A stretch of DNA of 54,237 nucleotides from a virus: IMG/VR virus record IMGVR_UViG_3300030250_000026. One strand, written 5' to 3'. Numbering within the stretch: position 1 is the stretch's first letter; each line of letters opens with the position of its first letter. A program made the translations under genes and the position numbers. The notes beneath the pieces were generated by a model. The model ran no database searches. It had not been told where the DNA came from and was given only the letters and a program-made list of their open reading frames with translations. Positions 3,425 through 44,200 of the stretch are shown piece by piece.

Positions 3425-4201
3425 ATGGCAGAACAAGATAAGGTGCAGATGCCTGTGGAAACGGGTGCTGTGAATGAGGAGCCGAAGAAGTCGAAGCGTG
3501 ACATGTTGCGCGAACGCTTGTCGAAGAAGTACCCCGACAAGAATTTTGATGACGATGAGGCTTTTGCGGATCAGGTGAATGCAGATTATGATGATTATGA
3601 CAACAAGATAGCCGGTTACAAGAAGAGTGAGCAGGCGTTGTCGGACATGTTTGCGAGTGACCCGCGCTCGGCAAATTTCCTCATAGACTGGAAGGAGGGT
3701 TCGGACCCCGTGATTGCACTTGTGCGTAATTATGGCAGTGACATTGTGGCGGCTGTGGACGACCCCGAACGTCAAGAAGAGATGGCGGAGGCGAACAAGG
3801 CGTATATAGAGCGCATGAACCGCAACAAGGCCCTTGAAGAAGAGTATAAGGAGAACTTGAACCAGTCGTTGCAGATGATGCAGGAGGCGCAGGAGCAGAA
3901 TGGCTGGAGTGACGAGCAGGTAGATGCGGCATGGCAGCAGTTGTTCAAGATAGTAGATGATGCTGTGATGGGCAAGTTTGACCCCGAAACACTGAAGTTG
4001 CTGATGAATGGCAGCAACTATGACAAGGCTGTGGCGACAGCTCAGCAAGAGGGTGAGATAAAGGGCCGCAATGCGAAGATAGAGGAGAAGCTTAGAAAGC
4101 AGCAACAGAGTGACGGGACGGCCCACCTTAATGGTAAGAACGGACGTGCTCCGCGCCGTACTGCCGACCAAAGTATTTTTGCCCTGGCATCGCAAGCCTA
4201 A
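3425..4201 (+). CDS. Capsid scaffolding protein candidate
   Basis: 258 aa, very acidic, coiled-coil rich, with a basic C-terminus. Located directly upstream of the major capsid gene. Confidence 0.55.
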   Translation: MAEQDKVQMPVETGAVNEEPKKSKRDMLRERLSKKYPDKNFDDDEAFADQVNADYDDYDNKIAGYKKSEQALSDMFASDPRSANFLIDWKEGSDPVIALVRNYGSDIVAAVDDPERQEEMAEANKAYIERMNRNKALEEEYKENLNQSLQMMQEAQEQNGWSDEQVDAAWQQLFKIVDDAVMGKFDPETLKLLMNGSNYDKAVATAQQEGEIKGRNAKIEEKLRKQQQSDGTAHLNGKNGRAPRRTADQSIFALASQA

Positions 4202-10787: not shown

Positions 10788-11927
10788 ATGGCAAAGAAAG
10801 ATTGGAGCGAGATGGAAGGATTGCCATGGCGGCTTGATGTAGGCTCGACATTGGAAGAGGCCATGCAGTCGGAGAACGGTCAGATGCTGTATGTAACGAA
10901 AGATGGCCAAATAGTGATGAATGGTGAGGTGATAGCCAATGATGCTGTACATTACCTTGGCAGTTATTCACTTTCTTCGGGAGGCGAAAATGCCGCAAAA
11001 CAGCTGTCGGTAAATTGCTTTACGAAGCCAATACTGCACTATACCATAACGGGCAATAATAATTTGACAGCGTTGGTGCGCCAGGTGCGTACGAACAATA
11101 CGAATGTGCGTCAGTGGCTGAGGCTCGGTGCTACGCTATACTACCGTGATGTGACGATGAACAACGACTTTAGTCAGGCTACATCATGCACATCGTGGAC
11201 GAGGTTGCCGGAGTATGACTCTACGGTGGACAGCCGCATCACCAAGAACCGTTCGGACATTGCTGACAACATACAGAAAGTCAATGCAAACACAAAACGT
11301 TTAGACGGTATAGATGGTGCGATAGAGTCATTTGGCGAGAGCATTACAGACCAAGCCTTGCGCATATATAACCTGGAGCACGGCAAACCATTGGCTACCC
11401 AATTGGCACCAGGCTTTATGAGCGCAGAAGACAAGGTAAAGGTGGACACGCTGAACGGTGGCATTGCGCAGCAGAAGGACGGCAGTTATAAGACATTGAC
11501 TGGCAAGGCCGTCATTGAGACGCACTCCGACGTGGTGGGAGAGGAGGTGAGTTTGACAGACTTTAATAACGCCCAAGCCACTACCTACAATAAAGGTGAT
11601 GTGATAAACCTATACTATACCAAGGGTGCCTATGGTGTGCTTGCGCAAAAGGATATGCTATGGTTCGGCCGTCGCGTGGTGAGCAACGACAGCAGCAACG
11701 GCACGCTCGTGAAGTATGACTTTAAGACTATTGCCGGTGTGGAGCCTAAAGATGCGTTTAACAGTGACATTACTCTGTACTTCTTGACACTCAAGGGTTA
11801 TACATCTGCCTTTAGGGGTAGTGCTGGTTATACATTGTACCCATTGAATGTAAGTGCAGTGCCCTACTTGCCATCAACAGCAGACAAGGTGCTGCTTGAA
11901 AAGATAAAACAGAAACTTGGATTATGA
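10788..11927 (+). CDS. Fibre/receptor-binding candidate (shared N-terminal module, distinct C-terminus)
   Basis: 379 aa. N-terminal ~50 aa are paralogous to the 9164 product. The rest is beta-rich and unrelated. Confidence 0.45.
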   Translation: MAKKDWSEMEGLPWRLDVGSTLEEAMQSENGQMLYVTKDGQIVMNGEVIANDAVHYLGSYSLSSGGENAAKQLSVNCFTKPILHYTITGNNNLTALVRQVRTNNTNVRQWLRLGATLYYRDVTMNNDFSQATSCTSWTRLPEYDSTVDSRITKNRSDIADNIQKVNANTKRLDGIDGAIESFGESITDQALRIYNLEHGKPLATQLAPGFMSAEDKVKVDTLNGGIAQQKDGSYKTLTGKAVIETHSDVVGEEVSLTDFNNAQATTYNKGDVINLYYTKGAYGVLAQKDMLWFGRRVVSNDSSNGTLVKYDFKTIAGVEPKDAFNSDITLYFLTLKGYTSAFRGSAGYTLYPLNVSAVPYLPSTADKVLLEKIKQKLGL

Positions 11928-19230: not shown

Positions 19231-19272
19231 ATTGTCTGTTTGTTATGCCCGAAGGCAAAGTTAATAATGAAT

Positions 19273-19305
19273 TGGAAAACATTTGGAAAACATTTGGAAA
19301 ACATT
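19273..19305. repeat. Three tandem 11-mers TGGAAAACATT (arm-type integrase site candidates)
   Basis: Exact copies at 19273-83, 19284-94 and 19295-305. Confidence 0.8.
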
Positions 19306-19410
19306 TTCGTTTTACAATCATATTCCAAACGTCACTTGTAAGCAATCTATTTTCTTTGTCCAGATAGTTTAACCATGACTACACGTGTAGAAAACCATTG
19401 ATAATCAACG

Positions 19411-19449
19411 AAAAACAGAGGATTGCTCGTAATGAACAATCCTCTGTTT
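19411..19449 (-). terminator. Intrinsic terminator placed directly after the tRNA-His 3' fragment
   Basis: 13-bp perfect inverted repeat AAACAGAGGATTG / CAATCCTCTGTTT. On the minus strand it follows CCA by 2 nt and ends in a T-run. Confidence 0.65.
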
Positions 19450-19451
19450 GG

Positions 19452-19496
19452 TGGGGTGCTTAGTGGGATTCGAACCCACGACATTCAGAACCACAA
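19452..19496 (-). other. attP core candidate: 3' portion of tRNA-His(GTG), from anticodon loop to CCA
   Basis: The reverse complement reads TTGTGGT (loop, anticodon GTG), TCTGA, ATGTC, GTGGG-TTCGAAT-CCCAC, TAAGCAC, C, CCA. There is no matching 5' half, so this is a fragment. Confidence 0.7.
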
Positions 19497-19559
19497 ACTA
19501 ATTAAAGGATTGTTGAATGCGTTGATTGTCATACGTTTTCCACTCTGTGTAGTGATTGA

Positions 19560-19580
19560 TGGAAAACATTTGGAAAACAT
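19560..19580. repeat. Two further tandem TGGAAAACAT(T) copies on the other side of the core
   Basis: Copies at 19560-70 and 19571-80, in the same orientation as the left-hand triplet. Confidence 0.8.
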
Positions 19581-19642
19581 GTTGGGGTATGTTATTGGGT
19601 TTATGAGGTAGTTATAATCTGAATGCTTGGGTTTGAGGGCTC

Positions 19643-21142: not shown

Positions 21143-21190
21143 ATTACCTATCAATATATTTGGTATACCTAAGGTATTACCTTATCTTTG
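21143..21190 (+). promoter_or_regulatory. Rightward early promoter with three operator-like boxes
   Basis: TTTG (21159-62), a 20-nt spacer, then TATCTTTG (21183-90) matches the Bacteroidota TTTG/TAnnTTTG consensus. Boxes ATTACCTA, TATACCTA and ATTACCTTA lie at 21143, 21164 and 21176. Confidence 0.55.
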
Positions 21191-22217: not shown

Positions 22218-22421
22218 ATGAAGGATACGATTAAAGATGTGATAAAGGCACTTGTGTTTGGTGCTGTGATTATAGCTGGCCTGGTGTATGCTGGCCGCAG
22301 TGACTACCGCGATGCGGTGGTGACTGAAATGAAAAATAACGGTACGTACTACTCCATGCTGCATGAGCACCCTGACTGGACTGAGGGTCAGATGGTGGAG
22401 GCGTATGTTGACAAGAAATAA
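22218..22421 (+). CDS. Small single-TM protein
   Basis: ATG at 22218. TM segment VIKALVFGAVIIAGLVY. Confidence 0.45.
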   Translation: MKDTIKDVIKALVFGAVIIAGLVYAGRSDYRDAVVTEMKNNGTYYSMLHEHPDWTEGQMVEAYVDKK

Positions 22422-22535
22422 GTTTTAAGTTGAGGAGTTGATGAGTTGAAGAGTTGAGCGGTTAGTTTTAGAGGTCGACCCCGCAGAGGTAACTTCATAA
22501 ACTTTTCAACTTGTAAACTTGTCAACTTGAAATTC
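22421..22535 (+). repeat. AGTTGA-block palindromic element, copy A
   Basis: Left arm AAGTTGAGGAGTTGATGAGTTGAAGAGTTGAG. Conserved core CGCAGAGGTAACTTCATAAACTT. Right arm TTTTCAACTTGTAAACTTGTCAACTTGAA. Confidence 0.85.
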
Positions 22536-22559
22536 CCCAAATGATTGCTTAGTGAAATA

Positions 22560-22932
22560 ACTACTTTGTGTGTTACAACGTGTGGCCCGCTCAGTCTGTG
22601 AAGATATGGCGGTGCCGCGTACAAAGGCACAGTGCGGTTCGTGATGAATAGTGTGTGCCGTTCTGCCATGGCTTGATGTTTGGACATGGTTCGGCATGAT
22701 GCTGTGGCAGTGGTTGGATTTAAGTTGATTATCTATTACACAGAGGCGTTGTATGGTTCGTGATGAATAGTGCACGCCGCCCATGCAGGTGATAGGCCGT
22801 TAATCGGATAGGCGGCAAGGAGACAGTGCATTGGACTCGCCATCAGTAATGATGCTGGATAGCCTTGGTGACGAGTTTGGTTTTTGCGTGACATAGGACA
22901 TTATGGGGTTCGACTCCCCTCGCCTGCACGAC
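22560..22932 (+). ncRNA. Candidate structured non-coding RNA region (twin hairpins + tRNA/tmRNA-like 3' module)
   Basis: No credible ORF across ~400 nt. The exact 18-mer GGTTCGTGATGAATAGTG sits in two hairpin loops (22636-53 and 22755-72). GGGGTTCGACTCCCC + TCGCCTGCAC lies at 22905-29. Confidence 0.35.
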
Positions 22933-22963
22933 AACAAGATTACTAACAATTAAACGAAAGACA

Positions 22964-29280: not shown

Positions 29281-32200
29281 ATGCCAATAAGTAAAAGCGC
29301 ACTGAAGAATATATATGCCACCTTGCAGAAGGGTGGATATACACAGGACTACGAAACTTTTGAAAAGGGTTTTACTGGTAATGAACACTATGCGAACCGC
29401 AAGAAGGTGTATGACTTGCTGACGGCGAACGGTGCTCAGATAGGCGACAGCTATGAGGATTTTATGCGGAGAATATATGTGGCTCCGGCTAAGCCCGCAG
29501 CGGCGCAGACTGCCCACCCTCAACAGACAGCACAGGCTGCAGCACCGGCACAGCATGCGCCAGCCGCGAAGCCGAAACCGCGTAATGGGCAGTTGACGGC
29601 GGCTCAGCGGCAGGCATATATAGCGAGGGCGCAACAGATGTCGCAACAGGTTGGCGCATCGGTGCAGCGCACAAATAACCGCATGGATTATGAGAGAGCC
29701 AGGGCCGGACTGAGGACACCGCGTGTGCAGCTTGGCAGCAAGGCCAGTGGCGGGGCGAAACTTGGCGAGAACAGCCGTGTGGTTGCTACGAAGCCGAAGT
29801 TTAACCCTGCGACGGGTAAGATGGAGCGGACTTACTTGACAGAGTCGGGTAATGAGTATACGAGCCGTGCTGCGGCTGACATGGAGCAGAATGAAATAGA
29901 CCAGGCGGTACAGCAGCAACTTTATCCTAGCTATAATAACTATAACGACAAGCAAGCGGTGGCTGCGCAAGCACCTGCTACTGCTGTTGCGGCCCAACTG
30001 TGGAAGGAAGCCCAAAATGCGTACGATGCTGATAGCAGAAGGTATGATGAGATGGATTCAAAAAATCCTTGGGCTGCCAATATGGGTGTTGCAAAAGCAC
30101 AAAACCTTGAGGTGTCGCGACTTAAGCACTTTGATTTGCAGAAGATGAGTGACAACGCCTGGGCGCGTGTGGGCAAGCAGATGACGACATCGTGCTATGC
30201 GCGCCTGAGAAAGATGTACCCGAATGCGTTGGAGAGACAGGTGCAGGCATCGGCGGAGAAGGAGGCACGTGCACTTGTGCAGAATGCAGTGTACAAGTAT
30301 GCGGTTAAGATGAATGCGCCCAAAAGTCAGTTGGAGTACTTTATTAAGAAAGCCGTTGATGCGAACATGTTGACAAGCGTGCTCAGAGGCATGGCGCGGA
30401 AACAGGCTGGCACGACAGGTGATATGGCGGCCTACGAAGAAGCCATGGACGAATATGGCAAGGACCACCGTTGGACTGGTGTGTTCGGTACGGGTGTGGG
30501 TATGGCGTTTGACCCGACGAACTGGCTTGGCGGTTATGTAGGTTCGCTTGCCGGTAAGGCTGCACTGAACATAGGCGGCCGCCTTGTGCTGAAGAGTGCT
30601 CCTGGTGTGGGTGCCCGTTTGTTTGGCAGCACGATGGCAGGCAAGCTTGTGACCGGTGCGGCAAGCGGCATGGGCATGATGGGCACCTACGAAGGCGTGA
30701 AGGAGGCCGAGAGACAGTGGGTGTATGGCGGACACGTGAACCCCGAGACTCGCGAGAATGAGGGCTATTCGGCAGGTGCTGTGGCTTTGTCGGCCCTGAA
30801 AGGTGCCGGACTTGGCGCGATGACCGGTATGGTGTCGCCGTTGGTGGGCAATGTAGCAGACAAAGTGGTGCAAACCACGACCAGCGCGACTGGCAAGGTG
30901 GTGACAAGACTTGGCGAGGTAGCGACATCAGCCGTGGCCGAAGGTACGATATTTGCCATGCCGGCAGTTATTTCTGGACAAGAGAGTTTTGTGGACGCGT
31001 GGACCGAAAGTATGGCAATGATTGTAGGCTTAAAGGGTCCGCACATGGTGAAGTCAGCTGGCCAGGTTATAGCCGGAATGCGCCCTGTGGCAAATCCGCG
31101 AACCATGGCGGAGCGCAACAAGAACCGCAGAGGTTTTGTGGAGAACTTGAAAAGGACCATGGACGCGGGTGCGAACAAGCAATGGAATGGCAATCAGCCA
31201 GACGTTAGGTTCACGAAGGAGGAACTTGCCGAGTTGAAGCAGATGGGTTATGGCAATCTTGCATCGCTGCTTACCCCCACCGAGAAGGTATTGCCGAAGA
31301 AGAAGCCCAGTCAGCCGAAACACCCCAAGAACACTGATGGCTTGACGGTATACTTTGATGTGGGAAGTGGCAAGAAAGAGGCAGAGGCCGACCCGAAAAT
31401 GAAGTGGTTGCAGCAGCACCCCGAGTTTGACGGTTATGCCACGATGGAGAAACTCATGCAAGACCCGAATGTGAGCCAGGCGGCAAGGGCGAAGGCTTAT
31501 TATATGTTGACGGGCCGTCTGTTGCCGATGGGTACTATTACCGGTTGGAACGTGGGTAAGGACGACAAGGGCAACATCTGGGTGAAGTCGGTGAATTCGG
31601 AAGGCGAGGTTGTAACGAGCAGACGTTTTACAGATGAGGCATCAGCCAAGAGAGAGGAAGCCAAAATCATACGCCAAGTAGAACTCAATACCGTTGACAT
31701 GGGCGAGCAATATAAGGAGATGCAGGCCAATGCCGCTGTGGTAGAGACTGCTATAAAGGCTGTGGCTCCGAATGCCGATGTGAATGAGGCCATGCGCGTG
31801 TACGGCGAGGTGAAGAAGGGCAACAAAGACTATGACAGTTATAAGGACCTTGCGAAATCGATAGACGAGGCTATTGCGTCGAACCCCGAAGCGGTGGAGA
31901 GGGCCAAGACGTTATTGCCGGAAAACATACGTAAGGATATTGCCGAACAGACTGGTGTGGAGGTGGACAAGGCTTTGGGCAAGCCAGAAGCAGAGCGCAC
32001 TGATGCAGAGAAGCAGGCTGTGCAAACCTATCTTGAAAGACTTTATGACAAATCGGCGTCAGATGGTGCGGCGACACCCCCCGATGCACAACTTCAGGGT
32101 CCGGAGCAATTTGCTGAAGCCTATGCCCAGCACCGTACGCACAAGGGCAGCGGACAGGTGGTGCCAGCCACGATGAAGGCTGGTGACAGAAAGGTGTATG

Positions 32201-35200
32201 TTATTGATGGCGATGTGGTGCAATATGCGGACAAGTCGGGCATAGATGTGGCGAAGTCGGACAAGAGTATTGTTGTGTGTGATGCTGAGACGGGCAAGTA
32301 TGAGTATACGAGTCCGGACCAGCTAATGAATGTTGGTGAGCCAGCGGACCCGAGCACACTGTCGGAGGCGTATATGGCGAACGAGCGTGCGAAGGAGGCT
32401 GCTGCCAATGGCGAGGGAACTGCCGAGGGTAATGCGGCTGCCGAGGGTAATGCGGCTGCCAATGGCGATGTGTCTGCTGATGGTGGCAAGGCGGAAGTTG
32501 TGGAACCTGCCTACACAGATGGCAGCCGTGTTGAGATAAATGGGCATGAGTATGACGTAAAGTCGGCAGGTGAGAAGACTGTGGTGCTTGTTGACGAGCA
32601 CGGGAAGGAACTTGCTTGGACCCGTAGTGCGCTTGATGCGAAGCTGGAGAGTGGTGATGCTGAGGTGCTTGAACCCAAGGCGGAGGCTGCTCCTGATGTA
32701 GCAACGGAGGGTTTGAAGGCTGGTGACGTGTTTGAAGACAGCGATGGTAATGCGCTGACCGTTAAGCGCGTTGATGGCGACAAGGTGGTTGCTGTTGGCG
32801 CAGACGGGAAGGCGCAGACGTATGAAGATGGCACGTTTGAGCAGATGGTGGAAAGCGGTGTGCTGAAGCGTGCGCAGAAAACAGAAGAACCTTCTGAAGC
32901 GAAAGTGGACCTGACTGACAATCAGGGTAACCCCGTTAATGATGATGGCACGCTTAAGGTAGAGGCTGTTCAGTCTGTAGATGAACTGACGGACGAGGAT
33001 TTCTCTGCTCCTACACGTAATGTGCAGTTGCCTGCTTTGCCTCAGAATGTGGACGCGGCATTAAATGCAAATGGTAAGCCAGTCATTATCAAGAAGAATA
33101 TTTTTAAGAAAAACTGGGGAGCGCATGAATTCTATTCTGATGAGAGCAGGGCTATACTTAAAGCTGCATTGTATAATACAGACTTGGTGGGTCAGAGACA
33201 ATCCAACGACAAACCTTTGCATTGGGTTGCTATTAGAATTGACGATGAAAGTCCTACCGTGGTACTTGAAGTAAACGAGAATAAGGATAATATAGAAATT
33301 GTCGACTGGTTTACGGTTGATGAACGAGAATCAAAAAGAATATACAGAATAAAAAAACAAGCCGAGAAGAACGGCGGGGAACTCGTTATGTTATCCCCGA
33401 AGGATAAGGTGGAAAGCCTTTCCACTCCTCAAACCGACTTGTCTGCTGAAAGCAAAGGTACGGAACAATCTTCGGGTGTGCAAGCGGAAGTGCCACAAGC
33501 TGAAGTGCAGGAAAATGCTCCTATGCCGATGCGTGTTGTTGGCAAGGGGAAGAATGCGGTGCAGGAGGAGGACTGGCTTGCGACGACTCCGAAGCGTGGT
33601 CATGACTATGTGTTCAAGGAGAGTGGTCTTGATGCTGAGGAGGCGAATGCTTTTGTGGAGAACAAGGTGGCTGAGGCTGAGAAGAATCTTGAAAAGGTTA
33701 AGGGCAAGGCTCCTAAGATGGGTACTAACATTGCGGCTTACAAGGAGGCTAAGGCAGACTATGAGGCTCGTGTGGCTGAGGCTCAGAAGGCTGTGGACTA
33801 CTGGCATGCGGTGAAGGCTGAGCGTGACAAGGTGTTGCTTGAGGAACGGCGTGCGCGCAAGGAGAAGGACAAGGCGTTGTATGACGATGCCGTGGCGCAG
33901 GAGGAGCAGCGCAAGGCTGAGATGGCGCAGAAGGCTGCCGAGCAGGAGGCTTTGGGCAGTAACGCTGTGGCTCCTGCCATTAAGGAGAAGTGGGAGAATG
34001 CTCCGAAGGTAGATGGTGGTGCAGATGAGATTACTTTGCCTAATGGTGAGGTGGTGACCGGTCATTATGTGCTGACGGAGAGTGGTGCGGCGAGTGCTTC
34101 GCACCAGGCTACGAACGGGTTTGCGGAGACTGAGGGTTACCCTGTGGACGTGAATGGTGAGACTGTGAATGACCGTGACTATAAGCGTGACGCTGAGGCC
34201 CAGCAGGTGACGCGTGGCATGGCTGCTGATTATGACAGCCGTGCGCTGCAAAGCCCTGTGGTGGTGAGTGGTGATGGTGTGGTGCTGTCGGGTAACGGCC
34301 GTACCATGGCTGGTGAAATTGCGGCTTTGAATGGTAGTGATGCGAAATATAATGCGTATCTTCGCGGGCATGCCGGCAAGTTTGGTTTTACGACGGAGCA
34401 GGTGGAAGGGTTTAAGCACCCTCGTGTGGTGTTTGTGCCTGATGGTGAGATGCCTTACACGTCGGAGACCTTTGCGAAGTTCAACCAGCGTGAGCAGAAG
34501 AGCCAGAGCCGTACTGAGATGGCTGTGAAGCTTGGAAAGGTGGTGGACGATGCTTTGTTTGGCCGTGTGATGGACGTGATAGGGCGTCATGAGTCGTTGG
34601 CAGAGTTTTATGCTGATGATGCTGCTACTGCTGCTGTGGTGAAGGAGTTGGCTGATGCTGGCGTGATACCTCAGACAGAGATGGCGCAGTTGTTTGACGG
34701 CGGCCGTTTGAGCGAGAGCGGTCAGGCTATGGTTGAGGGTGTGCTTGTGGGCAAGGTGTTCCAGGGCAGCCCTGATGCTGTGCGTCAGATTACTGAGGTG
34801 AAGAGTATGCGCAAGGCTGTGATGGCTGCTTTGCCTGAGGTGGTGGCTTGTCACCGCCTGGGTGGTGGCTATGACTTGTCGAAGGAGTTGGCTGCTGCTG
34901 TAGACTTGGTGTATAAGGCCCGCAAGGCTGGTTTTAAGCTTGGTCAGCATGTGAGCCAGCATGCGCGCCAGGGTAACTTGTTCCAGCTGGACGATGGTGC
35001 GACGGTGGCAGACTACAACAATGCTGCTGTGATGATGCTGGCAGACGTGATGAACGATGGGCGTGTGACGCAGCTGAAGAAGGTGCTGTCGTTTTATAAC
35101 ACGCAGGCGGCAGACTCTGCCCAGGGCATTGGTGACATGTTTGCCGGTGGTGTGAAGAGTAAGGGACAGATTATTAACGAGGTAAATGAGTTATTAAACA

Positions 35201-38200
35201 ATGGACAAGAATACGATAGAAGAACCCCGTCGGTTGCAGACGGACAAGGCGTCGGAGGCGAAGGCGGCGAACAAGGCGATGTTGCTGGCCCGAGCCATCA
35301 AGGCGGCGCGGGCAGCGAGCGTGGATTAAGTGAGGCTTTTGACGGCCTTGCAGCGCAGCTGAAGACTGCTGAGGGTGAGGAACGTAAGCGTGTGCTTGGT
35401 GAGATGCGTGATGGCATTGCGCGTTTTGCTGAGGAGAATGGTTACCCTGTGCCGGAGTTCTTGCTGACGCGTGAGGACTTTTTGGCGGCTGTGCCTGAGA
35501 AGGACAGGGCGAAGTATGTGGAGTGGCTTGATGATGGTGCGCACATGCCTGCCTATTATACTAAGGGCAAGGTGTATGTTTACGTGGAGGGTTGTGAGAC
35601 CTTTGACAAAGATGTGAATGAGACACTTGCCCATGAGTATACTCATGCTGATAATGCGGAGTTTCCCGAGAATGTGAATGCGTTGACGTATGCGTTGGAA
35701 GATACGCATGAAGTGACGCGTGACGAGCTTCGTGAAATATTGCGTGAAATGTCGCAAGGTGAGCATTACGACAGGGAGGCCGAGAGATTGGAGGCAGAGG
35801 GCAAGGACGTGAACAAGATGCTCGCCGATGAGGTTATAGCTCATGCAGTGGCACGCATGGTGGTGGAAGGTGAGCAAGTGCTTGACGGCATCACAAAGAA
35901 TCCTACGCTGCAATTTATAATTAAACGTGCATATAAAGCAAGAGAAAATGAACGACAATACAATATTCGTGCCCGTGAGAATGCCGAGCGGCATGACAAT
36001 GCGAGTGAGGGTGACAACAGAGGTGGCTCAAATAATGGAGCGAATGTTGAAGGAGAATCCGCAAATGGAGGAGTCGGACGCCCTGTCAATGGCTCTGAAG
36101 GAGGTGAAGTCTCGTCAGAGCGGGGACGCTCAACAGTAAGTGATGGCAAGGAAGTAGCGGCTCCTTCGTTGGAGGGTGCTAAAGTTGGTGTGACCGATGG
36201 TGAGAAATCGTCGGCCACTGGAGATGCTTTGCCTTCGGGTAAGGGTGACACCCCGTTGAGTGAGAAGATAGCCACCGCCTCAGCCGAAGTGAACACCGAA
36301 CCGACAGAGGCGCAGAAAGAAGCCGGCAACTATAAGAAGGGACATGTGCAAGTTGGCACGTTCGACATCACCATTGAGCAGCCGCAGGGCAGTGTGCGTA
36401 AAGGCACTGACGCTGACGGCAAGCAGTGGGAAAGCAAGATGAACAACACTTATGGCTACATTCGTGGTGCAGTTGGTGTTGATGGTGACCATATAGACGT
36501 GTTCCTCTCTAATGACATTGATGGTTGGAACGGACGCAGGGTGTTTGTAGTGGACCAGTACAACCCAGATGGCAGTTTTGACGAGCATAAGGTGATGCTT
36601 GGTTTCAACGATGCTGACGAAGCAAAGAACGACTATCTTGCTAACTATGAGAATGGTTGGGAGAATGGTCGTAGAATTGACGTGACTGCTGTGAACCTCG
36701 AAGACTTTGAGAAGTGGATTGCATCAAGCAAGCGCAAGACCAAGCCCTTTGGTGAGTACTCGTCGGTGAAGAATGGTGTTGTGCCTTCGGGTGAGGGTGA
36801 CACCCCGTTGCTTGACGTTGATGGCAAGCCTATAGTGGTGAAGGCAGACGATGGCAAGGTGGAGTTGAACCTACGTACTTGGCAAGATGAGAAGCAGCAG
36901 GTGCGTGATGCGCTGTTAGACGGCGGGCTGGAGCCGGAGGCTGTAGATGCGATGATGGCCCAGGCTGAAACTATTGCCAGTGGCATGAGTGGACTTGCTG
37001 ACAAATACCCGCTGTTTGGTGCATGGCAAAAGGTGGCAGCTACTAACCGCCCTATATTGAGAAACAATGCGGGAGGTTATTTGAGCTTTGACTATTCGTT
37101 CAACTGTGTGAAGAAAGATGCCTTGAATGCTGTGATGGAGGCACTTGTGGCTGAGGGCAAGGGTGGCCATTTGGGCGTGACCCAGGTTGAGGCTTTGAAG
37201 AAGGTGCTTCAGAAACATGGCTTTTTGACTCCTTGTGTGATGTGTTATGTTGAGGCCAAGCGCAAGGTGTACAAGCAGAGCAAGGAGATGGCTGCCAAGT
37301 GGAATGCTGTGGCCGAGGCTGCAGGCTTGACTGGCGAAGATATGGGTGCCGAACGCGAGCTTGGCGCAGAGCAGAGGAATGCTCTGGCGCAACTTGCCAA
37401 TGGTGAAAATCTTGGCTCGGTGAAGGGTTCTGCAGAAAATGGCAAATATGGTATAAAGAAGGATACTATTGTGAAGATAGCGAAGCTCATGCTTGACAGT
37501 GCGAAGCTGAGAGGGCGCATGAACTATGAATGGATGATGTCGCCGAGTTCGTACACTGAAATGTACAACAAGTTTGGTGATACGGGATTGATGGAGTTCA
37601 TGTCGCAGGGTCAGAGTCGTGGCAAGGCTTTGCTTGAAACCTCACCGTTTAGTTTTAAGTCTGTTCCAAGAGACCTCATGATGGGCATGTATAACCCTGT
37701 GGTTCTTGCGAATATGGGTGGTGTGCGTCAGTTCAGCTATGAGGACGCACGTGCGGTCATGTTCTTTGACTACTACACGCAGTTCCTTGTTATGCAGGGT
37801 GCGCGTGCTCCGGAGCACCTTTACACGAAGCGTCCGTTTATGCCGGAGATGTTTGGCCGTACTGGTGCCATGATGAACCAGAGCCTTATAGTGGATATAT
37901 GGCGTGGTGAAGAATGGCACAAGAAGGCCCTTGGCTTGTCGGACAAGGAGTATGATGCGTGGTTGACAGCGCATGCGGGATTTGTGCCAAGAGGTGCATT
38001 GCCCAAGGGCCATACTCTGTATGAGGCTGGCAGTACGGAGCTTGTTCCGAATTGGGGTGTTGAGAGTTTCCCCGTAGACATTGCGATGAAGAATGTGCAT
38101 AACAAGGATTATAAAGGCACTGTGGGCAATGTGGTGGTGGCCCCCAACCGCAAGTTTATATTATGGGCCTTGGATAACCCAGACATTCACATGGTGCTGG

Positions 38201-41200
38201 CTTATCATGCCAATGGTGCGAACCCGCTGGTGAAGTCGCTCACTGGTTATGACCGTGCAGAGGCTATGGACGATGGTTACCATACGCATGACGAGAATGG
38301 CAAGGTGGTAGATGAGTTGTCGGTGCCGGAAATAGGGCTTGAAATTCATGATGGTGACTTGCAATGGAATGTGTTGTTGCGCCGTAATGGTTATGATGCG
38401 CGGAAGGCTGCCCAGGTGTATCTTGACTATTGCAAGGAACATGGCCTGACGCCGATGTTCTGCTACGATGGTGTGGTGGACATGAGTGGTGAGCGTGCGA
38501 CTTCGCACCCGGAGTATTACAAGTTGCTGACGGATTTCAGAGTGTATGATGAAGATGGCAACAGCATTCGTCAGCGTGCGGTAAAGGCCCTTTTGCCGGA
38601 GAACTGGCAGGTGATACTTGACAAGTATTTGCAGCAGGAGAGTGCTTTGGGAAGCAAGGTTGGCCACATTGGGCTTGATGAGGGGCTGATGAAAGAAATC
38701 AATGCTGTAACGCGGTTTGCTTCGATAGAAAGTGGTGAGCGTGACACATTGACAAAGTTGCTGACTTCAATCTATGGCAAGGACAATGTGCAGGTGCTGG
38801 CTACGCGTGAGTTTGATGCGGCTCTTGATGAGGTGACTGAGCGTGGGCATGCTCAAATGTTGCGTGACAATGGTGGCACGGTGTATGGTTTTGCGGTTGG
38901 TGACAGGATTGTGCTGAATGAAGATTTGTTCAATGCCAACACGCCGATGCACGAGCATACGCATGTGTATATGAAGGTGCTGAAGGCGACGAACCCCCGT
39001 TTGTATAACCGTGGTATGGAGCTTTGGCGCGATACGCCATTGTGGAAGCAGGCTAAGCGTGGTCTTGAGGAGTTGGGTGAGGAACCTACAGATGAGCAGA
39101 TATTCAGTGAGTGCATGAGCCAGTTTACGGGTGTTGAGAATGAGAAGGTTATCAGTGAGGTGACTGGCATAACAGACAAGAACTGGCTGCAGAAGGCTAT
39201 GTCGTGGTTGAGCGAGATGTGGAAAGGTGTGAAGTCTGCTTTCAGTCGTTGGACGCAGAATGACCTTGATGGCTTGACCGCGGAGCAGTTTGGCCGTATG
39301 CCATTGCGTGCCGTATATGATGCGAAGGAGCGCAAGGCTTATGCTAAGATGGTTAAACAAGTGTTTGGTAATGGTGGTGCAGGTGAACATGGTGTTGAGA
39401 TGATGCATGAGCCGTCAAGAGAGGAGACGATACTTCGTGATGTGGTGATAGAGCACATGAAGGGCAGTGGCCTTGATGTGATTGGCACGGAAGAAGGGCA
39501 GCGTGTGCTTGACATGGCGAATGGAAGATATGTAAGGTTGGAGGCTAAACAAAAAAGAGCACTTGAAACCGCGACGATAGCAGAGCAATCCACTAATAAT
39601 GCCACAGTCGTTTCAAGTGCTGATGGTGCAAAGGTACAAAAGGTTCTTGAAACACTTGCCGATAATTATGAAAAACGTCCTAACAAGACGAGAGGCTTTA
39701 TAACTGATTTGTCAAGAAGTCTTGGTTTAGTACAGCATGAAGCGAGCCAATATGGTACATTCGAGACACGAAATGGTAAGTTGGTTACTATCCGTGTGAG
39801 CAATCACAATGCACGTGTTTCGTTCTTTGACGAAAATGGTGAGGAAGATGGAATAAGCATTGTTATATCAAGCCATAAGAACAAAGGGGTATTGAATGAT
39901 GGCAAGGCTCATTTAGTGGAATATTTCTATCCGAAGCAATCTCTTGAACGTTCGGGAGGTAAGCCTTTGGCTGATATAGTAAAGTGTGTATCTACGGTTT
40001 TGGAAAGTGGTAAGTTTGAGGATACGACAGGACTGGCTCAACGTCAGGAGGTGAATGCCCAACAAATTCGCGAGCACCGCGTGTATCATGGCAGTGGTGC
40101 TGAGTTTGACCACTTTGACCATAGCCACATGAGCGAGGGCGAAGGTTCGCAGGTTTATGGCTGGGGCACTTATGTGACTGAGGTGAAAGGTATTGCTGAA
40201 GGGTATGCGATACGTGCAAGGAATGGAATATCAAATATCAATGAGGAGTGGTATTTGAAACGTGGTGAACTTGAATCGAATATCTATCGTGCCAAGGAGC
40301 AGTTGCCTTTCCTTAAAGGGGAATATAAGGCAGAAATGGAAGCTCAAATCTCGGAATGGGAGAAACAGTTAAAGGAATATGATGGACCTAATAACCTCTA
40401 CACGGTAGAAATTCCCGATGACAATGGAAGCAACTATCTTGCATGGAATGAACCATTAAGTGTGGAAGATTCAGGTAGAATTATAAGTGGCCTGTTTGAT
40501 TTGCCTCCTTCGGATATTGAGGAGATGGCTAAACGTGATTATACGTTCAAACATATTTTGTATGACCTGATTAAAATTAATGATAAGGCGCAGTATGTTC
40601 CTGTCTTGGCTAAGGGCAATGTGCTAAGCAGGTCTACAATGTATGATGGTGGTAGAGAAATAAATGATTTTGGCGGAGTTTACAGAAGGTTGCAGGGCTG
40701 GTTCGGCAGTGCCAAGGCTGTATCGAAGTTTCTTTATTCTCTTGGCTATGCCGGCATTAAATATCCGGCAGACTATCGCAGTGGCGGCCGTGAGGACGAT
40801 GCGAAGAACTATGTTATCTTCAACGAGAATGATGCGGAGATAACTGACCATGTGCGCTTTTTCAAGACCAAGAATGGCGAGGCTTATGGCTTTACTGTTG
40901 GCGGCAAGATTTACTATGACCCGAGGATTGCGAATGCTGAGACACCTGTGCATGAGTATGCCCACTTGTGGGCGAGTGCGCTGAAGGCGAACAATGCGGA
41001 GGAGTGGAAGAATGTGGTTGACTTGATGAAGGGCACCAATGTTTGGGAGGAGGTGAAAAAGACCTATCCCGAACTTGAAACGGACGATGAGATTGCTGAC
41101 GAGGTGCTTGCCACGTATTCGGGCCGACGGGGTGCGGAGCGACTTCGTGAGGAGATGCGCAAGGCTGCTGCCGATGGTGATGGCGTGATGGGCAAGGCTG

Positions 41201-44200
41201 AGGCGGTGAGTGCGCTGCAGCGTGTGAAGCGTGCCATTGACAGGTTCTGGAAGGCTGTGGCAGACTTCCTTCACATTCACTACACGAGTGCCGAGGAGGT
41301 GGCTGACAGAGTGATGAAGGATTTGCTTGACGGTGTGGACCCGAGAAAGTTCATGGGGGATAAGGCGCAGAAGGAGAAGATGCGCTATCAATTCATGGGC
41401 GAGAAGGGTGCTGGCGAGAATGTGCGTGACGCGGAGGACTACACGGCATTTGCCAGCCGGTATGGTGTCAGCGAGGATATGGTGAAGGATTATGCGTTGG
41501 GCATAAAGACTGGCAACTTGCAAAAGGCTAATTTTGCCTTGACTGAAATACGCCGTACGATGCGTGTGGCAAACCGTGGCATGAAGCTTTCGGAGTTTGG
41601 CAAGTTGTTCCGCCCTGTGCAAAAGGAGCTGGCTGAACGTTATGGTGACATAGAGGTGTTGCGGCAGGAGTATATTGATGCTGAGATGCGTGAACGTGGC
41701 GTTATGGAGGCTGCCCGAAAGCGTGCCGAGGAGGAGGCGGCAAAACGTAAGGCTCGTGCTGATGAGTTGCGTTTGTTGCCGGAAGAGGAACTTGACAGGC
41801 GTTATTTTGAGGCGGTTGAGCGTGGTGACGATGCTGCTGCCCGCGAGATGCTTGACGAGGCTGCCCGCCGCAAGGGTTATGGCGATACTGAAAGTGAGTA
41901 CCAGGGTGTGGGTGCATGGGTGGCACCGTCGAACCCTGGTTATGAGACGGACGAAGCGAGACGTGACGCCGTTGGCGAAGACTCGCCTGACCTCAATGTG
42001 GAGGACATGGCGGCAGGCTACAGCAACCAACCAGAAGACATTTTTGTGCATCCTGATAAATACTCGCAAGGCTTGCCAACAAGCAAGGAGAGCGGCAAGG
42101 CGATACAGACGGCCATTGACGACATACGGAACGGTAAAAAGGAGGTAAAAATAAAGGTGTATCGCGCTGTGCCTACCTCAGTAAAGGAGAGCAAATTGCG
42201 CAATGGTGACTGGGTGACCCCCTCGAAGGAGTATGCAGAGATGCATGGCAACAACCGTTTGGAAGGTAAGTACCGCATCATTGAAGATGAGGTACCAGCT
42301 GGTGAACTTTGGTGGGACGGCAACGATGTCAACGAATGGGGCTTTGACGATGGCAAGGGCTACAAGTATAAGAATGTGGAGAACAGCCGCAAGTTGAATG
42401 ACCTTGTGACGCGTGATGATAATGGCGAGATTATTGCTCCTTCGAAGCGTTTTGACGAGAATGTGGAAGATGTGAGGTACCGCACAAGCGAAGAACTTGG
42501 TCAAGAATATGGCTCGCGTTGGATTGACGAACAGACTAATGAGGACGGACGTCATACGACGCAGGTGAAGAACACCATCAATTCGTACAAGAAATTTGGT
42601 GACTGGGTGAAGCGTGATTCAGGCGGACGCAATGTAGATGTGCTTGATGCGAGCAGCGGCCTTGGTCTTGGCACAGAGTGGTTGCGTGAGAATGGTATTA
42701 ACGTTGAAGACGTGGAGCCTTATCCGTCAGAGAACCGCACAGCCCCTACTTATATAAGTTATGGCGAAGTAAAGAAAAAGTATGACTACATTATTAGCAA
42801 TGCAGTCTTGAACGTGATACCCGATGACTGGCGGGCCAATGTGCTGCACAATATGGCGGAAAAATTGAAAGTTGGCGGCAAATTGGTTATCAATGTGCGT
42901 AGTGCTGAAAGTATTCGCAAACAAGGTAAGGAGGGTGAGACGCGTATAACTCTTGACGACCCGTCGGAGATACTTGTGTTACGCCCGAATGGTAGCATCA
43001 AGGCTTATCAGAAAGGATTTACAAAGGCTGAACTGAAAGAATGGTGTGAAAAGGAATTGGGCAAGGGTTATTCGGTAGAAATAGCGAATGACAAGAACGC
43101 TGGCGGCAGCTATGATACTGCTGTGGTGGTGACTAAAAATAACGAAAGCGGCACTATTGGTGTCGCTTCCGAGGCGGGCCGTCCACGCAGGAGTGCGCAG
43201 GCCTTGCCCAGTTCAAATGCAAAGTTAGACAATAATCAGAAATTTGCCAATAACTTATTGGTACTTTCTGAAAATTTGTCTGAAAGAGATATGGGAGCGC
43301 ATGAATTCTTGTTCAATGTGGCAAAGGCTTTTGGGCTTAATGGACAAAATTTGAATAAGTCTTTCTATCAAGATTTAAGCAATTCAGTTGGCATTCGCAT
43401 ATCAGACCATTCGGCAAATACTGATAACATTACAAACAGAAATGTGAACGATGATGTTTATGGTTTAGTTGTAAAACTCTCTAAGAATCGCTTTAAGTCA
43501 AGAAGCGATGCCAACTACCTTGAATACGTTTACTATCCCGACAAGTTGACTGGCGAGCGTCAGCGTGAGATTGTTGAAGGGTTGAATAAATTCTTGCAGA
43601 CTGGCGACTATATGCAACTGCCAGCACCAGACAGAGTGAACCGTTCGGGGAAGTTTGATGTGTTGATTGACGGAAGGGAAACTTCGCCAACGGCCAAGCA
43701 CCAGGCTGCCAATGACCTTGCGCGGCAGATGCACGTGGAGGGTGAAGTAGAGGTGGTGACAAGCACTGATGGCTTGACCGGCAGACAGGCGAAGGCTAAG
43801 GGCTGGTATGATGTGAGGACCGGACGTGTGACGATTGTGCTGCCTAATAACAAGAATGCGGCTGATGTGCGTGAGACGGTGTTCCACGAGGTGGTGGCGC
43901 ACAAGGGGCTACGTAACCTTGTGGGTGAAGAAAACTTTAACACCTTCCTTGATAACGTGTACAACAATGCTGAGGAGGGCATCAAGCAGACCATTGACGA
44001 GATGGCTGAGAAGAAGTATAATGGTGACAAGCGCAAGGCTACTGAGGAGTATATGGCGCACTTGGCCGAGGACGGTGAGTATGTGAAGCCGGAGAACCAG
44101 GGCTTCTTTGCGAAGGTGAGGGATTTCTTGACGGACTTGCTGAGGAAGGTTGGCATAAAGCTTGGCTTTAAGTTGACGGACAATGATTTGCGCTACATAT

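What the first reader, a model, noticed from the sequence alone, without database searches (positions are those of the whole stretch)
22540..22960. Roughly 400-nt ORF-free tract with twin hairpins sharing an exact 18-mer and a tRNA/tmRNA-like 3' module
In an otherwise tightly packed genome this tract has no credible ORF on the coding strand.

Two hairpins (stems GGCACA/TGTGCC at 22626-59 and GGCGT/ACGCC at 22745-78) present the identical loop sequence GGTTCGTGATGAATAGTG. That sequence contains an RUGAUGA, k-turn/C-box-like heptamer.

The tract ends in GGAC..GGGGTTCGACTCCCC-T-CGCCTGC-A. This resembles a T-arm plus acceptor 3' strand, close to the canonical tmRNA/tRNA terminus. A possible 5' acceptor partner, GCAGGTG, lies at 22785-91.

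The tract directly follows palindromic element A, at the start of the recombination operon. One hypothesis is a cis-acting antitermination RNA (put-like, with two stem-loops) that lets RNAP read through the palindromic elements. The alternatives are a tRNA-like decoy, a relic second att core, or an origin.
Basis: partly seen in the sequence, partly recalled or inferred. Interest (0 to 1): 0.65.

Follow-up and report, generated by a model that had tools for sequence, protein, structure and literature searches.

The report
Phage tRNA-like RNA lacking anticodon
The gene-free stretch in this gut-phage genome encodes a folded RNA that copies the top half of a transfer RNA but has no decoding arm, preceded by conserved hairpins. 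It belongs to a large family in related uncultured phages that I could not find described, and it is probably cut out of the early transcript by the host's tRNA-processing enzymes.

Summary
The tract has no credible ORF. The 18-mer occurs exactly twice, inside two hairpins. The 3' end is a T-arm plus acceptor strand that pairs with GCAGGTG at 22785-91.

What is there is a 144-nt tRNA-like gene (22785-22928). It has a 7-bp acceptor stem, a 4-bp D-like arm and a canonical T-arm. A long irregular helix replaces the anticodon arm.

I found 122 distinct homologues in IMG/VR and gut-metagenome contigs, with 39 different acceptor strands and lengths of 73-227 nt. Covariation is near-perfect: 98.6% of cells are paired and 15 of 16 pairs show double-sided changes. 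The shortest members have no central arm, so these RNAs cannot decode. ARAGORN, the Rfam tRNA model and the Rfam tmRNA model do not call them.

The twin hairpins are leader hairpins. The "loop" is a 3-bp helix capped by GNRA(N), flanked by G.A and G.U. Such hairpins sit 1-10 nt upstream of both these modules and real tRNA genes in this phage group.

Best reading (inferred): RNase P and RNase Z excise the module from the early operon. The hairpin then caps the upstream mRNA. The released RNA may also act as a tRNA top-half mimic.

Put-like antitermination, a C-box/k-turn, an att relic and an origin are not supported.

The parts
22584..22616 (+). H0: hairpin with an 8-bp lower stem (one bulge) and the top AG-UCU-GUGA-AGA-UA. 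It is the same motif class as H1 and H2.
   Evidence: Read from the sequence. MFE -16.8 kcal/mol, z = -4.1. The same GG-UCU-GUGA-AGA-UAG top lies directly upstream of modules in L241 and L267.
22626..22659 (+). H1: leader-type hairpin. Outer stem GGCACA/UGUGCC, a bulged G, three inner pairs, then G.A and G.U, then UUC/GAA capped by GUGAU.
   Evidence: z = -2.2.
22663..22710 (+). 48-nt hairpin that starts 3 nt after H1. It has an acceptor-like stem CUGCCAU/GUGGCAG and an internal GGACAUGGUUCGG. It may be a degenerate minihelix remnant of a second module.
   Evidence: MFE -22.9 kcal/mol, z = -4.0. Its position is analogous to the 64-nt mini tRNA-like element that follows the hairpin in L034. The covariance model does NOT detect it, so this reading rests on resemblance only.
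22745..22778 (+). H2: leader hairpin of the intact module. Stem GGCGU/ACGCC, a bulged U, GUAU/GUGC, then G.A and G.U, then UUC/GAA capped by GUGAU. It ends 6 nt before the module's 5' end.
   Evidence: z = -2.2.
22785..22928 (+). tRNA-like module of 144 nt.
   Evidence: Covariance model R1 scores it at 124.6 bits, E about 1e-33. Covariation is shown. It is 100% identical in six relatives whose recT gene is only 95-97% identical.
22785..22791 (+). Acceptor 5' strand GCAGGUG. It pairs with 22921-22927.
   Evidence: All 7 pairs show changes on both sides across the family.
22792..22816 (+). Invariant AUAG connector (22792-95) followed by the D-like arm: GCCG (22796-99), a 13-nt loop UUAAUCGGAUAGG (22800-12), and CGGC (22813-16).
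   Evidence: Alignments A1 and A2. The stem covaries.
22830..22881 (+). Central arm that replaces the anticodon arm. It is an irregular helix (22830-45 pairing with 22866-81) with the conserved apical sequence GAUGCUGGAUAGCC (22851-64).
   Evidence: RNAalifold on 8 long-form members predicts it, with compensatory pairs. It is absent from the 73-77-nt members.
22894..22903 (+). Conserved single-stranded UAGGACAUUA just 5' of the T-arm.
   Evidence: Alignments A1 and A2.
22904..22920 (+). T-arm U/GGGG-UUCGACU-CCCC/U.
22921..22928 (+). Acceptor 3' strand CGCCUGC plus discriminator A. It is followed by CGA; position 74 is C in 30 of 39 acceptor classes.
22929..22963 (+). 35-nt A-rich leader before the recT start codon (22964).
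   Evidence: A same-strand ORF starts 17-46 nt after the last module in 19 of 32 acceptor classes.

Best explanation
SHOWN. Bases 22785-22928 are a gene for a structured RNA with the upper half of a tRNA. It has a 7-bp acceptor stem, a 4-bp D-like arm with a GG-containing loop, and a canonical T-arm. A family-specific AUAG connector and a UAGGACAUUA linker are also present. There is no anticodon arm: here a long variable helix takes its place, and the shortest relatives have nothing there. The RNA belongs to a large family in uncultured phages, probably of gut Bacteroidales. H0, H1 and H2 are members of a conserved hairpin class: a variable lower stem, then G.A, G.U, 3 bp and a GNRA(N) cap. 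In this phage group such hairpins sit 1-10 nt upstream of tRNA-like modules and of real tRNA genes. The tract therefore looks like a short tRNA-cluster-like array with one intact unit and perhaps one decayed unit.

INFERRED. The tract has no Bacteroidota-type promoter box of its own, so it is transcribed as part of the early rightward operon. The host's tRNA-maturation enzymes recognise only the acceptor/T-arm/elbow. RNase P would cut at 22784/22785. RNase Z or exonucleases would cut after A22928 and CCA would be added. This cutting would split the early polycistronic mRNA. The GNRA-capped hairpin 6 nt upstream would become the exonuclease-resistant 3' end of the upstream message, and recT mRNA would start with a short A-rich leader. 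The arrangement parallels the MALAT1/mascRNA arrangement and mitochondrial tRNA punctuation. A stable small tRNA-like RNA would be released, and it may have a trans function of its own.
For: Structure:
- On an unbiased MAFFT alignment of 13 members, 98.6% of cells are paired. The figure is 64.9% in shuffles and 33-50% when partners are slid. 12 of 16 pairs change on both sides, including all 7 acceptor pairs.
- On 37 members, 15 of 16 pairs change on both sides, in 201 compensated cells.
- RNAalifold independently recovers the same helices.
- G.U pairs occur in the plus-strand sense.

Family:
- 122 distinct sequences with 39 acceptor strands, 73-227 nt, found in 212 loci.
- 36 double and 6 triple arrays.
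- All 80 metagenome loci kept were confirmed by the model.

Not a decoder:
- Members of 73-77 nt have only a 17-21-nt linker between the D-arm and the T-arm.

Constraint:
- The module is 100% identical in six relatives, and the 5' half of the tract is 99.2-100% identical. In the same relatives recT is 95-97% identical.

Processing logic:
- Exactly the parts that RNase P, RNase Z and the CCA-adding enzyme read are conserved, while acceptor sequence and central arm vary freely.
- A stable hairpin ends within 8 nt of the 5' end in 26 of 39 classes, against 17% at random positions (p = 2e-11). It is GNRA-capped in 15 of 39, against 3% (p = 2e-12).
- Real tRNAs in the same phages have the same hairpins 1-4 nt upstream.
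- Position 74 is C in 30 of 39 classes and CCA is encoded in 5, as in neighbouring true tRNA genes.
- The next same-strand gene starts 17-46 nt downstream in 19 of 32 classes.
- The only plus-strand TAnnTTTG boxes near the early operon are at 21155 and 21183, and there are none inside the tract.
Against: - There are no expression or cleavage data. Every processing step is inferred from established knowledge of what RNase P, RNase Z and the CCA-adding enzyme recognise.
- A hairpin 1-6 nt from the cleavage site might hinder binding of the RNase P protein to the 5' leader.
- Punctuation needs only one module. Back-to-back arrays with no hairpins between modules (L128, L100) suggest the RNA product itself matters.
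- So do the family-specific invariant AUAG, the D-loop and the conserved apical motif of the central arm.
- Single-sequence folding of the module is not better than shuffles (z = -0.39). The case rests on comparative data.
- The hairpin covariation count was made on hairpins that I selected by a pairing rule, so its paired percentage is partly circular.
Confidence: 0.55

Rival explanations
1. Trans-acting tRNA top-half mimic. The excised RNA is the point of the element. It would be a harmless, non-decoding decoy or sponge for host factors that read the acceptor/T-arm/CCA end, such as tRNA-targeting anti-phage toxins or tRNA-processing and tRNA-modifying enzymes. Alternatively it would be a tRNA scaffold that stabilises a variable 'cargo' arm.
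For: - Modules occur in arrays of 2-3 with different acceptor stems.
- Family-specific invariant residues go beyond a generic tRNA elbow.
- The central arms carry conserved apical motifs: GCUGGAUAGCC, UAGUUAGCCGA, UAAUAGGCUGA.
- The module is more conserved than the flanking genes.
- Loss of the anticodon arm would keep such an RNA off the ribosome.
Against: - No partner protein gene recurs next to the modules.
- No antisense target for the apical motif was found in the phage.
- Nothing was tested about stability, abundance or binding.
- The conservation pattern is equally explained by processing alone.
Confidence: 0.22
2. Cis-acting transcription antitermination signal. This would be either put-like RNA or nut/boxB-like hairpins bound by a phage N-type protein, modifying RNAP in the early operon.
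For: - The tract lies in the early operon downstream of cro-like genes.
- The hairpin tops are conserved and capped by GNRA or GNRA+1, which recalls boxB.
- In some loci the same hairpin is followed by a U-tract (L008, L098, L066).
Against: - Element A lies upstream of the tract and is dispensable.
- In distant relatives the hairpins are swapped (a GAAAGA type replaces the GUGA type) while the tRNA-like module is kept.
- The same hairpins precede ordinary tRNA genes at 1-4 nt.
- No match to an antitermination RNA family appeared in the Rfam scans.
- The pentaloop is GNRA plus a 3' extra base, not the GNR(N)A of boxB.
Confidence: 0.08
3. Decaying tRNA pseudogenes: remnants of a phage tRNA cluster with no present function.
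For: - Related phages carry real tRNA genes at the same place.
- A possibly degenerate copy follows H1.
- Some phage tRNAs nearby have insertions in the anticodon loop.
Against: - 39 acceptor classes keep all helices through compensatory change.
- Family-specific residues are invariant.
- The module is more conserved than the flanking coding DNA.
- A model of the family does not hit true tRNAs, and the tRNA models do not hit the family.
Confidence: 0.05
4. DNA-level element: a second or relic att core, an origin, or a small conserved protein gene.
For: - The T-arm plus acceptor 3' strand looks like the tRNA fragments found in att sites.
- The repeated 18-mer could be an iteron.
Against: - The 5' acceptor strand and the D stem covary with their partners, including G.U pairs, which indicates selection on a folded strand.
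- A classical attP-like tRNA 3' fragment with arm repeats lies beside the integrase.
- The 18-mer is itself a helix with compensatory variants.
- No ORF is called and there is no Pfam match.
Confidence: 0.03

Closest known systems
MALAT1/NEAT1 3' ends with mascRNA/menRNA (mammals)
   Same: Both have a tRNA-like element that cannot decode, embedded in a longer transcript. Both have a stable protective structure immediately upstream of the presumed RNase P site. The known system releases a small CCA-tailed tRNA-like RNA, and I propose the same here.
   Different: - The upstream protector here is a GNRA-capped hairpin, not a triple helix.
- The host is bacterial and the module sits inside a polycistronic phage operon, followed by a gene.
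- Cleavage is not demonstrated here.
- There is no sequence relationship; the resemblance is functional and comes from my own knowledge and the literature (PMC12016569, PMC13403906).
tRNA-like domain of tmRNA
   Same: The topology matches: acceptor stem, a D-loop region, a large insert where the anticodon arm would be, a T-arm, then the acceptor 3' strand. A GGAC motif lies 5' of the T-arm. Rfam's tmRNA model matches the T-loop.
   Different: - No G3.U70 pair (1 of 37 members).
- No tag reading frame and no pseudoknots; members can be as short as 73 nt.
- A real 4-bp D stem is present.
- ARAGORN finds no tmRNA even at a relaxed threshold.
Phage-encoded tRNA genes and tRNA clusters, including the small stable RNAs of unknown function in the T4 tRNA region (from my own knowledge)
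   Same: The genomic setting is the same, with real tRNAs at the same position in relatives. The leader hairpins, the C74 trailer and the tandem arrays are also shared.
   Different: - No anticodon arm.
- A 4-nt connector and a 13-nt D-loop.
- Not recognised by ARAGORN or by Rfam RF00005.
Bacterial Y RNA-like YrlA and viral 3' tRNA-like structures
   Same: All are non-coding RNAs that mimic the tRNA elbow and T-arm (PMC4201824, PMC5723415).
   Different: - YrlA has its ends in a Ro-binding stem, not in an acceptor stem, and lies next to rsr.
- Viral TLSs have pseudoknotted acceptor stems at genome 3' ends and are aminoacylated.
- Neither Rfam family matches here.
Candidate structured RNAs predicted in IMG/VR (PMC10690425)
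   Same: That survey used the same data source and reports uncharacterised 'tRNA or tRNA-like' candidates in phages.
   Different: No sequences or supplements could be read. I cannot tell whether this family is among their 10,006 candidates. In any case no function or anatomy is described there.

Membership tests
Canonical tRNA (Rfam RF00005 / ARAGORN) | 7-bp acceptor stem closed by a discriminator base | tested here: met
   All 7 pairs covary.
Canonical tRNA (Rfam RF00005 / ARAGORN) | T-arm: 5-bp stem and a 7-nt loop GTTCRANYC | tested here: met
   GG-TTCGAYT-CC is nearly invariant and the stem covaries. Some classes have 6 bp.
Canonical tRNA (Rfam RF00005 / ARAGORN) | Two-nucleotide connector (U8, N9) and a D-arm with a 7-11-nt loop | tested here: not met
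   The connector is an invariant 4-nt AUAG. The D-like arm has a 4-bp stem with a 13-nt loop.
Canonical tRNA (Rfam RF00005 / ARAGORN) | Anticodon arm: 5-bp stem with a 7-nt loop | tested here: not met
   It is absent from the 73-77-nt members. In the window a helix of about 16 bp with an apical region of about 20 nt takes its place.
Canonical tRNA (Rfam RF00005 / ARAGORN) | Recognised by curated tRNA models | tested here: not met
   ARAGORN finds 0 genes at default settings. It makes only a forced call, at an 80% threshold with a 59-nt 'intron'. Rfam gives no match at the gathering threshold on the window or on 9 loci with modules.
tmRNA | G3.U70 alanine identity pair | tested here: not met
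   At pair 3 the counts are AU 15, CG 9, GC 9, UA 3 and GU 1, out of 37.
tmRNA | mRNA-like domain with a tag reading frame, plus pseudoknots | tested here: not met
   Members as short as 73 nt leave no room for these. ARAGORN's tmRNA search is negative. Rfam's tmRNA model matches only 15 nt of the T-loop.
HK022 put / lambdoid nut antitermination RNA | Acts in cis on terminators downstream of it, and is conserved together with them | tested here: not met
   Element A is upstream of the tract. It is absent from 3 of 6 relatives whose tract is 99-100% identical. The hairpin type is exchangeable while the module is kept.
HK022 put / lambdoid nut antitermination RNA | Read-through of terminators by modified RNAP | not testable with these tools
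   This needs reporter or in vitro transcription assays.
Box C/D (k-turn) RNA | Conserved C box RUGAUGA paired with a D box CUGA | tested here: not met
   The heptamer is not conserved in homologous hairpins (GUGAGAA, GCGAGAA, GUGAAUA and others). The residues involved form a 3-bp helix plus a GNRA loop, with compensatory variants.
tRNA-gene fragment in an att site | Only the 3' part of a tRNA gene is present, next to the integrase | tested here: not met
   A full fold is present, with a covarying 5' strand. The module lies 3.5 kb from the integrase, and a typical attP-like fragment is at about 19.44-19.50 kb.
RNase P/RNase Z-processed tRNA-like 'punctuation' element (works like mascRNA) | Acceptor/T-arm/elbow intact, with a protective structure just upstream of the 5' end | tested here: met
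RNase P/RNase Z-processed tRNA-like 'punctuation' element (works like mascRNA) | Actual endonucleolytic cleavage at the module's ends, releasing a small RNA | not testable with these tools
   No transcript data are available. See the next steps.

The most novel reading that the evidence does not exclude
Temperate phages of gut Bacteroidales make a dedicated class of anticodon-less 'top-half' tRNA mimics, often in arrays with different acceptor stems. These would act in trans in one of two ways. They could be translation-neutral decoys for host factors or anti-phage toxins that attack the acceptor/CCA end of tRNAs. Or they could be natural tRNA scaffolds that display variable functional arms. 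Their excision would at the same time punctuate the early mRNA.
Probability: 0.2. Interest if true: 0.85.

Novelty: new variant of a known kind. Interest (0 to 1): 0.62.

Why it matters
If the reading is right, this is a large family of bacterial-virus RNAs, common in gut metagenomes, that standard tRNA and Rfam annotation misses. In at least one deposited Bacteroides phage a protein-coding annotation lies over a related tRNA-type gene.

The family would be a natural experiment on what the tRNA top half does on its own: processing signal, mRNA end-maker, or decoy. It would also be a prokaryotic counterpart of the MALAT1/mascRNA arrangement.

The conserved GNRA-capped leader hairpin next to tRNA-type genes is a second feature I could not find described. 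It could explain how phages embed tRNA genes in operons without destabilising the upstream message.

The covariance model built here can be used directly to annotate these elements.

Tried and rejected
- Default ARAGORN and Rfam at the gathering threshold on the window found nothing. The low-scoring Rfam 'miRNA' hits at 22420-22535 only reflect the long palindrome of element A.
- blastn of the tract and of two modules against 50,697 deposited phage genomes gave no homologue, only T-arm matches to tRNAs.
It gave 4 hits with no hairpin context, which is chance level. With hindsight, the D-arm pattern would have been a better query. The host therefore remains inferred rather than shown.
- L010 (an IMG/VR single hit) has only a 4-bp stem and is probably a chance match.
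- The model does not detect the 22663-22710 hairpin as a module, even with filters off.
- A search for an antisense target of the conserved apical motif in the phage gave chance-level results.
- Clustering of neighbouring genes found no recurrent tRNA-related or RNA-binding partner. The recurrent neighbours were a small membrane protein, an excisionase-like HTH protein, RecT and YqaJ.
- The cultured Bacteroides phage BS-TP4 has no module. BF1-TP2 has only a related hairpin plus a tRNA with an insertion.
- Four literature searches found no description of this family.
- The supplement of the IMG/VR structured-RNA survey is not held.
Full report
**1. The observation**

- The 18-mer GGTTCGTGATGAATAGTG occurs exactly twice in the window, at 22636 and 22755. 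Shuffles give 0.06 matches expected, even with up to three mismatches allowed.
- The two copies sit in a 40-nt repeat whose differences fall in the flanking stems.
- The plus strand has no ORF longer than 27 aa between 22540 and 22960.
- Gene callers of six independent public assemblies that carry the identical recT leave the same gap uncalled.
- The four minus-strand ORFs have no Pfam match.
- ARAGORN and Rfam at curated thresholds report nothing in the window. A permissive Rfam scan gives only a 15-nt match of the T-loop to tmRNA.

**2. What is conserved**

Eight IMG/VR contigs carry a near-identical tract. In six of them:
- the module (22785-22928) is 100% identical;
- the 5' half of the tract is 99.2-100% identical;
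- recT is 95-97% identical;
- palindromic element A (22423-22532) is absent in three, diverged in two (85-88% identical over these coordinates) and unchanged over them in one, L016, where one search shows an added repeat block.

The tract is therefore under stronger constraint than the neighbouring genes and does not depend on element A.

Among 80 loci encoding RecT relatives, nhmmer finds only the last ~150 nt of the tract in phages whose RecT is 71-84% identical. In those sequences both strands of the presumed acceptor stem change together. Examples are GCAGGTG/CGCCTGC, GCAGGTG/CACCTGC, AGCGAGT/ACTCGCT and GATTGCG/CGCAATC. The T stem and a 4-bp stem near the 5' end behave the same way.

**3. 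The family**

I made two pattern scans of IMG/VR and one of metagenome contigs. The metagenome scan found 110 stretches, many labelled human gut metagenome. I then searched with a covariance model built here (R1).
- The model confirmed all 80 metagenome loci that were kept.
- A script collected 122 distinct module sequences with 39 different acceptor 5' strands and lengths of 73-227 nt, in 212 loci (some loci are the same contig fetched twice). 36 loci have two modules and 6 have three.

Covariation:
- On a MAFFT alignment not fitted to any structure, 98.6% of cells pair. Shuffles give 64.9%, and sliding the partners gives 33-50%. 12 of 16 pairs change on both sides, including all seven acceptor pairs.
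- On 37 model-aligned members, 15 of 16 pairs do so, in 201 compensated cells.
- RNAalifold on eight long members independently returns the acceptor, D-like and T helices, plus a long central helix.
- G.U pairs appear in the plus-strand sense. This fits an RNA made in the direction of the genes.

**4. Anatomy**

From 5' to 3', the invariant or nearly invariant elements are:
- a 7-nt acceptor strand;
- AUAG;
- a 4-bp stem enclosing a loop of about 13 nt, YUAAWNGGAUAGR;
- a variable region;
- RCAUUA;
- a T-arm, GG-UUCGAYU-CC, with a 5-bp stem (6 bp in some classes);
- the acceptor 3' strand and a discriminator.

The variable region ranges from a 17-21-nt linker in the 73-77-nt members to about 150 nt. 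In between lie short hairpins with conserved 11-nt loops (UAGUUAGCCGA, UAAUAGGCUGA) and long irregular helices.

In the window the variable region is a helix, 22830-45 pairing with 22866-81, with the conserved apical sequence GAUGCUGGAUAGCC. Because the shortest members have no arm at all, the family cannot decode codons.

The family is also distinct from real tRNAs in both directions:
- R1 does not hit the true tRNA genes in the same loci at E <= 1.
- The Rfam tRNA model does not reach its threshold on any module.

**5. The twin hairpins**

The '18-mer loop' is itself structured. The base before GG pairs with the G of UAG. Then come G.A and G.U, a 3-bp helix, and a GNRA tetraloop or GNRA plus one base.
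- The 3-bp helix occurs as UUC/GAA, UCC/GGA, UAU/AUA, UGC/GCA, CCU/AGG and UCU/AGA.
- L105 and L152 differ only by the two compensating changes.
- The count gives 96% paired and 9 of 10 pairs changed on both sides. It is partly circular, because I selected those hairpins by a pairing rule.
- The C-box reading fails because RUGAUGA is not conserved.
- A third hairpin of this class, H0 (22584-22616), is present.
- Classes B and C carry a different hairpin instead (GCUCG-GAAAGA-CGRGC) at the same place.

Position relative to modules, taking one representative per acceptor class:
- A hairpin with dG <= -10 kcal/mol ends within 8 nt of the module's 5' end in 26 of 39 classes, against 17% at random positions (p = 2e-11).
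- It is GNRA-capped in 15 of 39, against 3% (p = 2e-12).

Real tRNA genes in these phages have stable hairpins 1-4 nt upstream as well. These include the same type I hairpin (tRNA-Arg in L149, L150 and L214; tRNA-Met in L267) and the same type II hairpin (tRNA-Arg in L050).

The hairpins are therefore leader elements of tRNA-type genes, not parts of a put-like device. In the window they are confined to the tract.

H1 is followed after 3 nt by a stable 48-nt hairpin with an acceptor-like stem. It may be a decayed second unit, but the model does not recognise it.

**6. Context**

- The window is a temperate phage genome. It has an integrase with Bacteroidota-type domains, a cI-like repressor, and then an early operon with RecT, YqaJ, NinB, VRR-NUC, DnaD-like and DnaC-like genes.
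- The only cultured relatives of one structural protein are Bacteroides temperate phages.
- The plus-strand Bacteroidota -7 boxes nearest the early operon lie at 21155 and 21183, before its first gene. There are none in the tract.
- Modules are co-oriented with the genes. In 19 of 32 classes a same-strand ORF starts 17-46 nt after the last module; for recT the distance is 35 nt.
- The module's place within the early region differs between related phages.
- No partner gene recurs beside it.

**7. Mechanism**

Shown: this is a conserved, folded, non-decoding tRNA-like RNA gene with a conserved leader hairpin.

Inferred from what is established about RNase P, RNase Z and the CCA-adding enzyme: all three read the acceptor/T-arm/elbow and ignore the anticodon arm. 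Those are exactly the parts that stay constant here, while the acceptor sequence and central arm vary freely. Position 74 is C in 30 of 39 classes and CCA is encoded in five, as beside the true tRNAs of these phages.

I therefore propose the following sequence of events:
- The module is excised from the early transcript.
- The hairpin is left as a 3' cap on the upstream mRNA.
- recT mRNA starts with a short A-rich leader.
- A small tRNA-like RNA is released.

This works like MALAT1/mascRNA or mitochondrial tRNA punctuation. I give this about 0.55.

Three features argue that the RNA also acts in trans, as a decoy or a scaffold: the arrays, the family-specific invariant residues, and the conserved apical motifs. 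I give that about 0.2. The two readings are not exclusive.

I rate the remaining rivals low: antitermination about 0.08, dead pseudogenes 0.05, DNA-level roles 0.03. The reasons are given under the rival explanations.

**8. Comparison and novelty**

The closest known systems are the tmRNA tRNA-like domain (same topology; no G3.U70, no tag, no pseudoknots), mascRNA (same logic), phage tRNA clusters (same setting), and YrlA or viral TLSs (tRNA mimicry of another design).

I found no prior description:
- The window and nine module-bearing loci match no Rfam family at gathering thresholds, and a permissive scan of the tract gives only chance-level hits.
- Three blastn queries (the tract, the window module and one short module) find no homologue in 50,697 deposited phage genomes.
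- Four full-text searches find nothing.
- A 2023 survey predicted unnamed tRNA-like candidates in IMG/VR (PMC10690425). Its sequences could not be read, so overlap with that list cannot be excluded.

I class the finding as a new variant of a known kind (tRNA-like RNAs), with interest 0.62.

Noticed in passing
window 19268-19582, minus strand (core about 19440-19500): A 3' fragment of a tRNA gene (GTGGG-TTCGAAT-CCCAC, TAAGCAC, C, CCA) is followed by a terminator hairpin. It lies between the integrase gene and the next gene. Direct repeats of ATGTTTTCCA(A) flank it, three on one side and two on the other. This is probably the real attP core with its arm-type sites.
   Followed up: partly
window 22423-22532: Palindromic element A has 33-nt arms built from 8-nt periodic AGTTGAnG / AAACTTnT units. 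Among phages whose adjacent tract is 99-100% identical it is absent, present or expanded. Similar AAGTTGA-repeat elements lie just downstream of modules in L156 and L163. It behaves like a mobile or unstable insertion.
   Followed up: partly
window 29281-47895: A single 6204-aa ORF carries InPase, LPD13, ddrB-ParB, ART-PolyVal and methyltransferase domains. It is a 'polyvalent protein' of the kind linked to phage-host conflict.
   Followed up: partly
L281 (Bacteroides phage BF1-TP2, PQ571263) 3790-3944; also L003 10672-10798 in the orientation (Rfam hit at stored coordinates 1225-1351, minus strand): A type-I-like hairpin (CCCCGC-CG-UCC-GUGA-GGA-UA-U-GCGGGG) is followed after 7 nt by a tRNA that scores 39.7 bits on Rfam tRNA. 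This tRNA has a 23-nt insertion in the anticodon loop and a long variable arm. ARAGORN misses it, and the record annotates the stretch as CDS gp8. L003 has a similar 127-nt tRNA (40.6 bits) followed by the hairpin.
   Followed up: partly
L118 841-935, L149 4104, L150 1618, L175 7547, L214 6832, L249 11024; L200 11842: ARAGORN calls 'tRNA-Pyl' (anticodon CUA; the L118 copy spans 95 nt) and 'tRNA-Stop' genes in related phage contigs. These may be suppressor tRNAs, which would hint at stop-codon recoding in part of this phage group.
   Followed up: no
L034 2595-2660 and L066 2300-2415: Further small tRNA-like elements (an acceptor-like stem plus a good T-arm, with no family D-arm) lie next to type I hairpins. 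Neither ARAGORN nor model R1 detects them.
   Followed up: no
L008 355-395; L098 5235-5275; L107 about 11135-11175: The same conserved hairpin top occurs away from any tRNA-like gene and is followed by a U-tract, for example between an upstream ORF and a GH19-type endolysin gene. There it looks like an intrinsic terminator.
   Followed up: no
window 52001-54237: G+C drops to 0.34-0.37 at the right end of the window, against 0.45-0.55 elsewhere.
   Followed up: no
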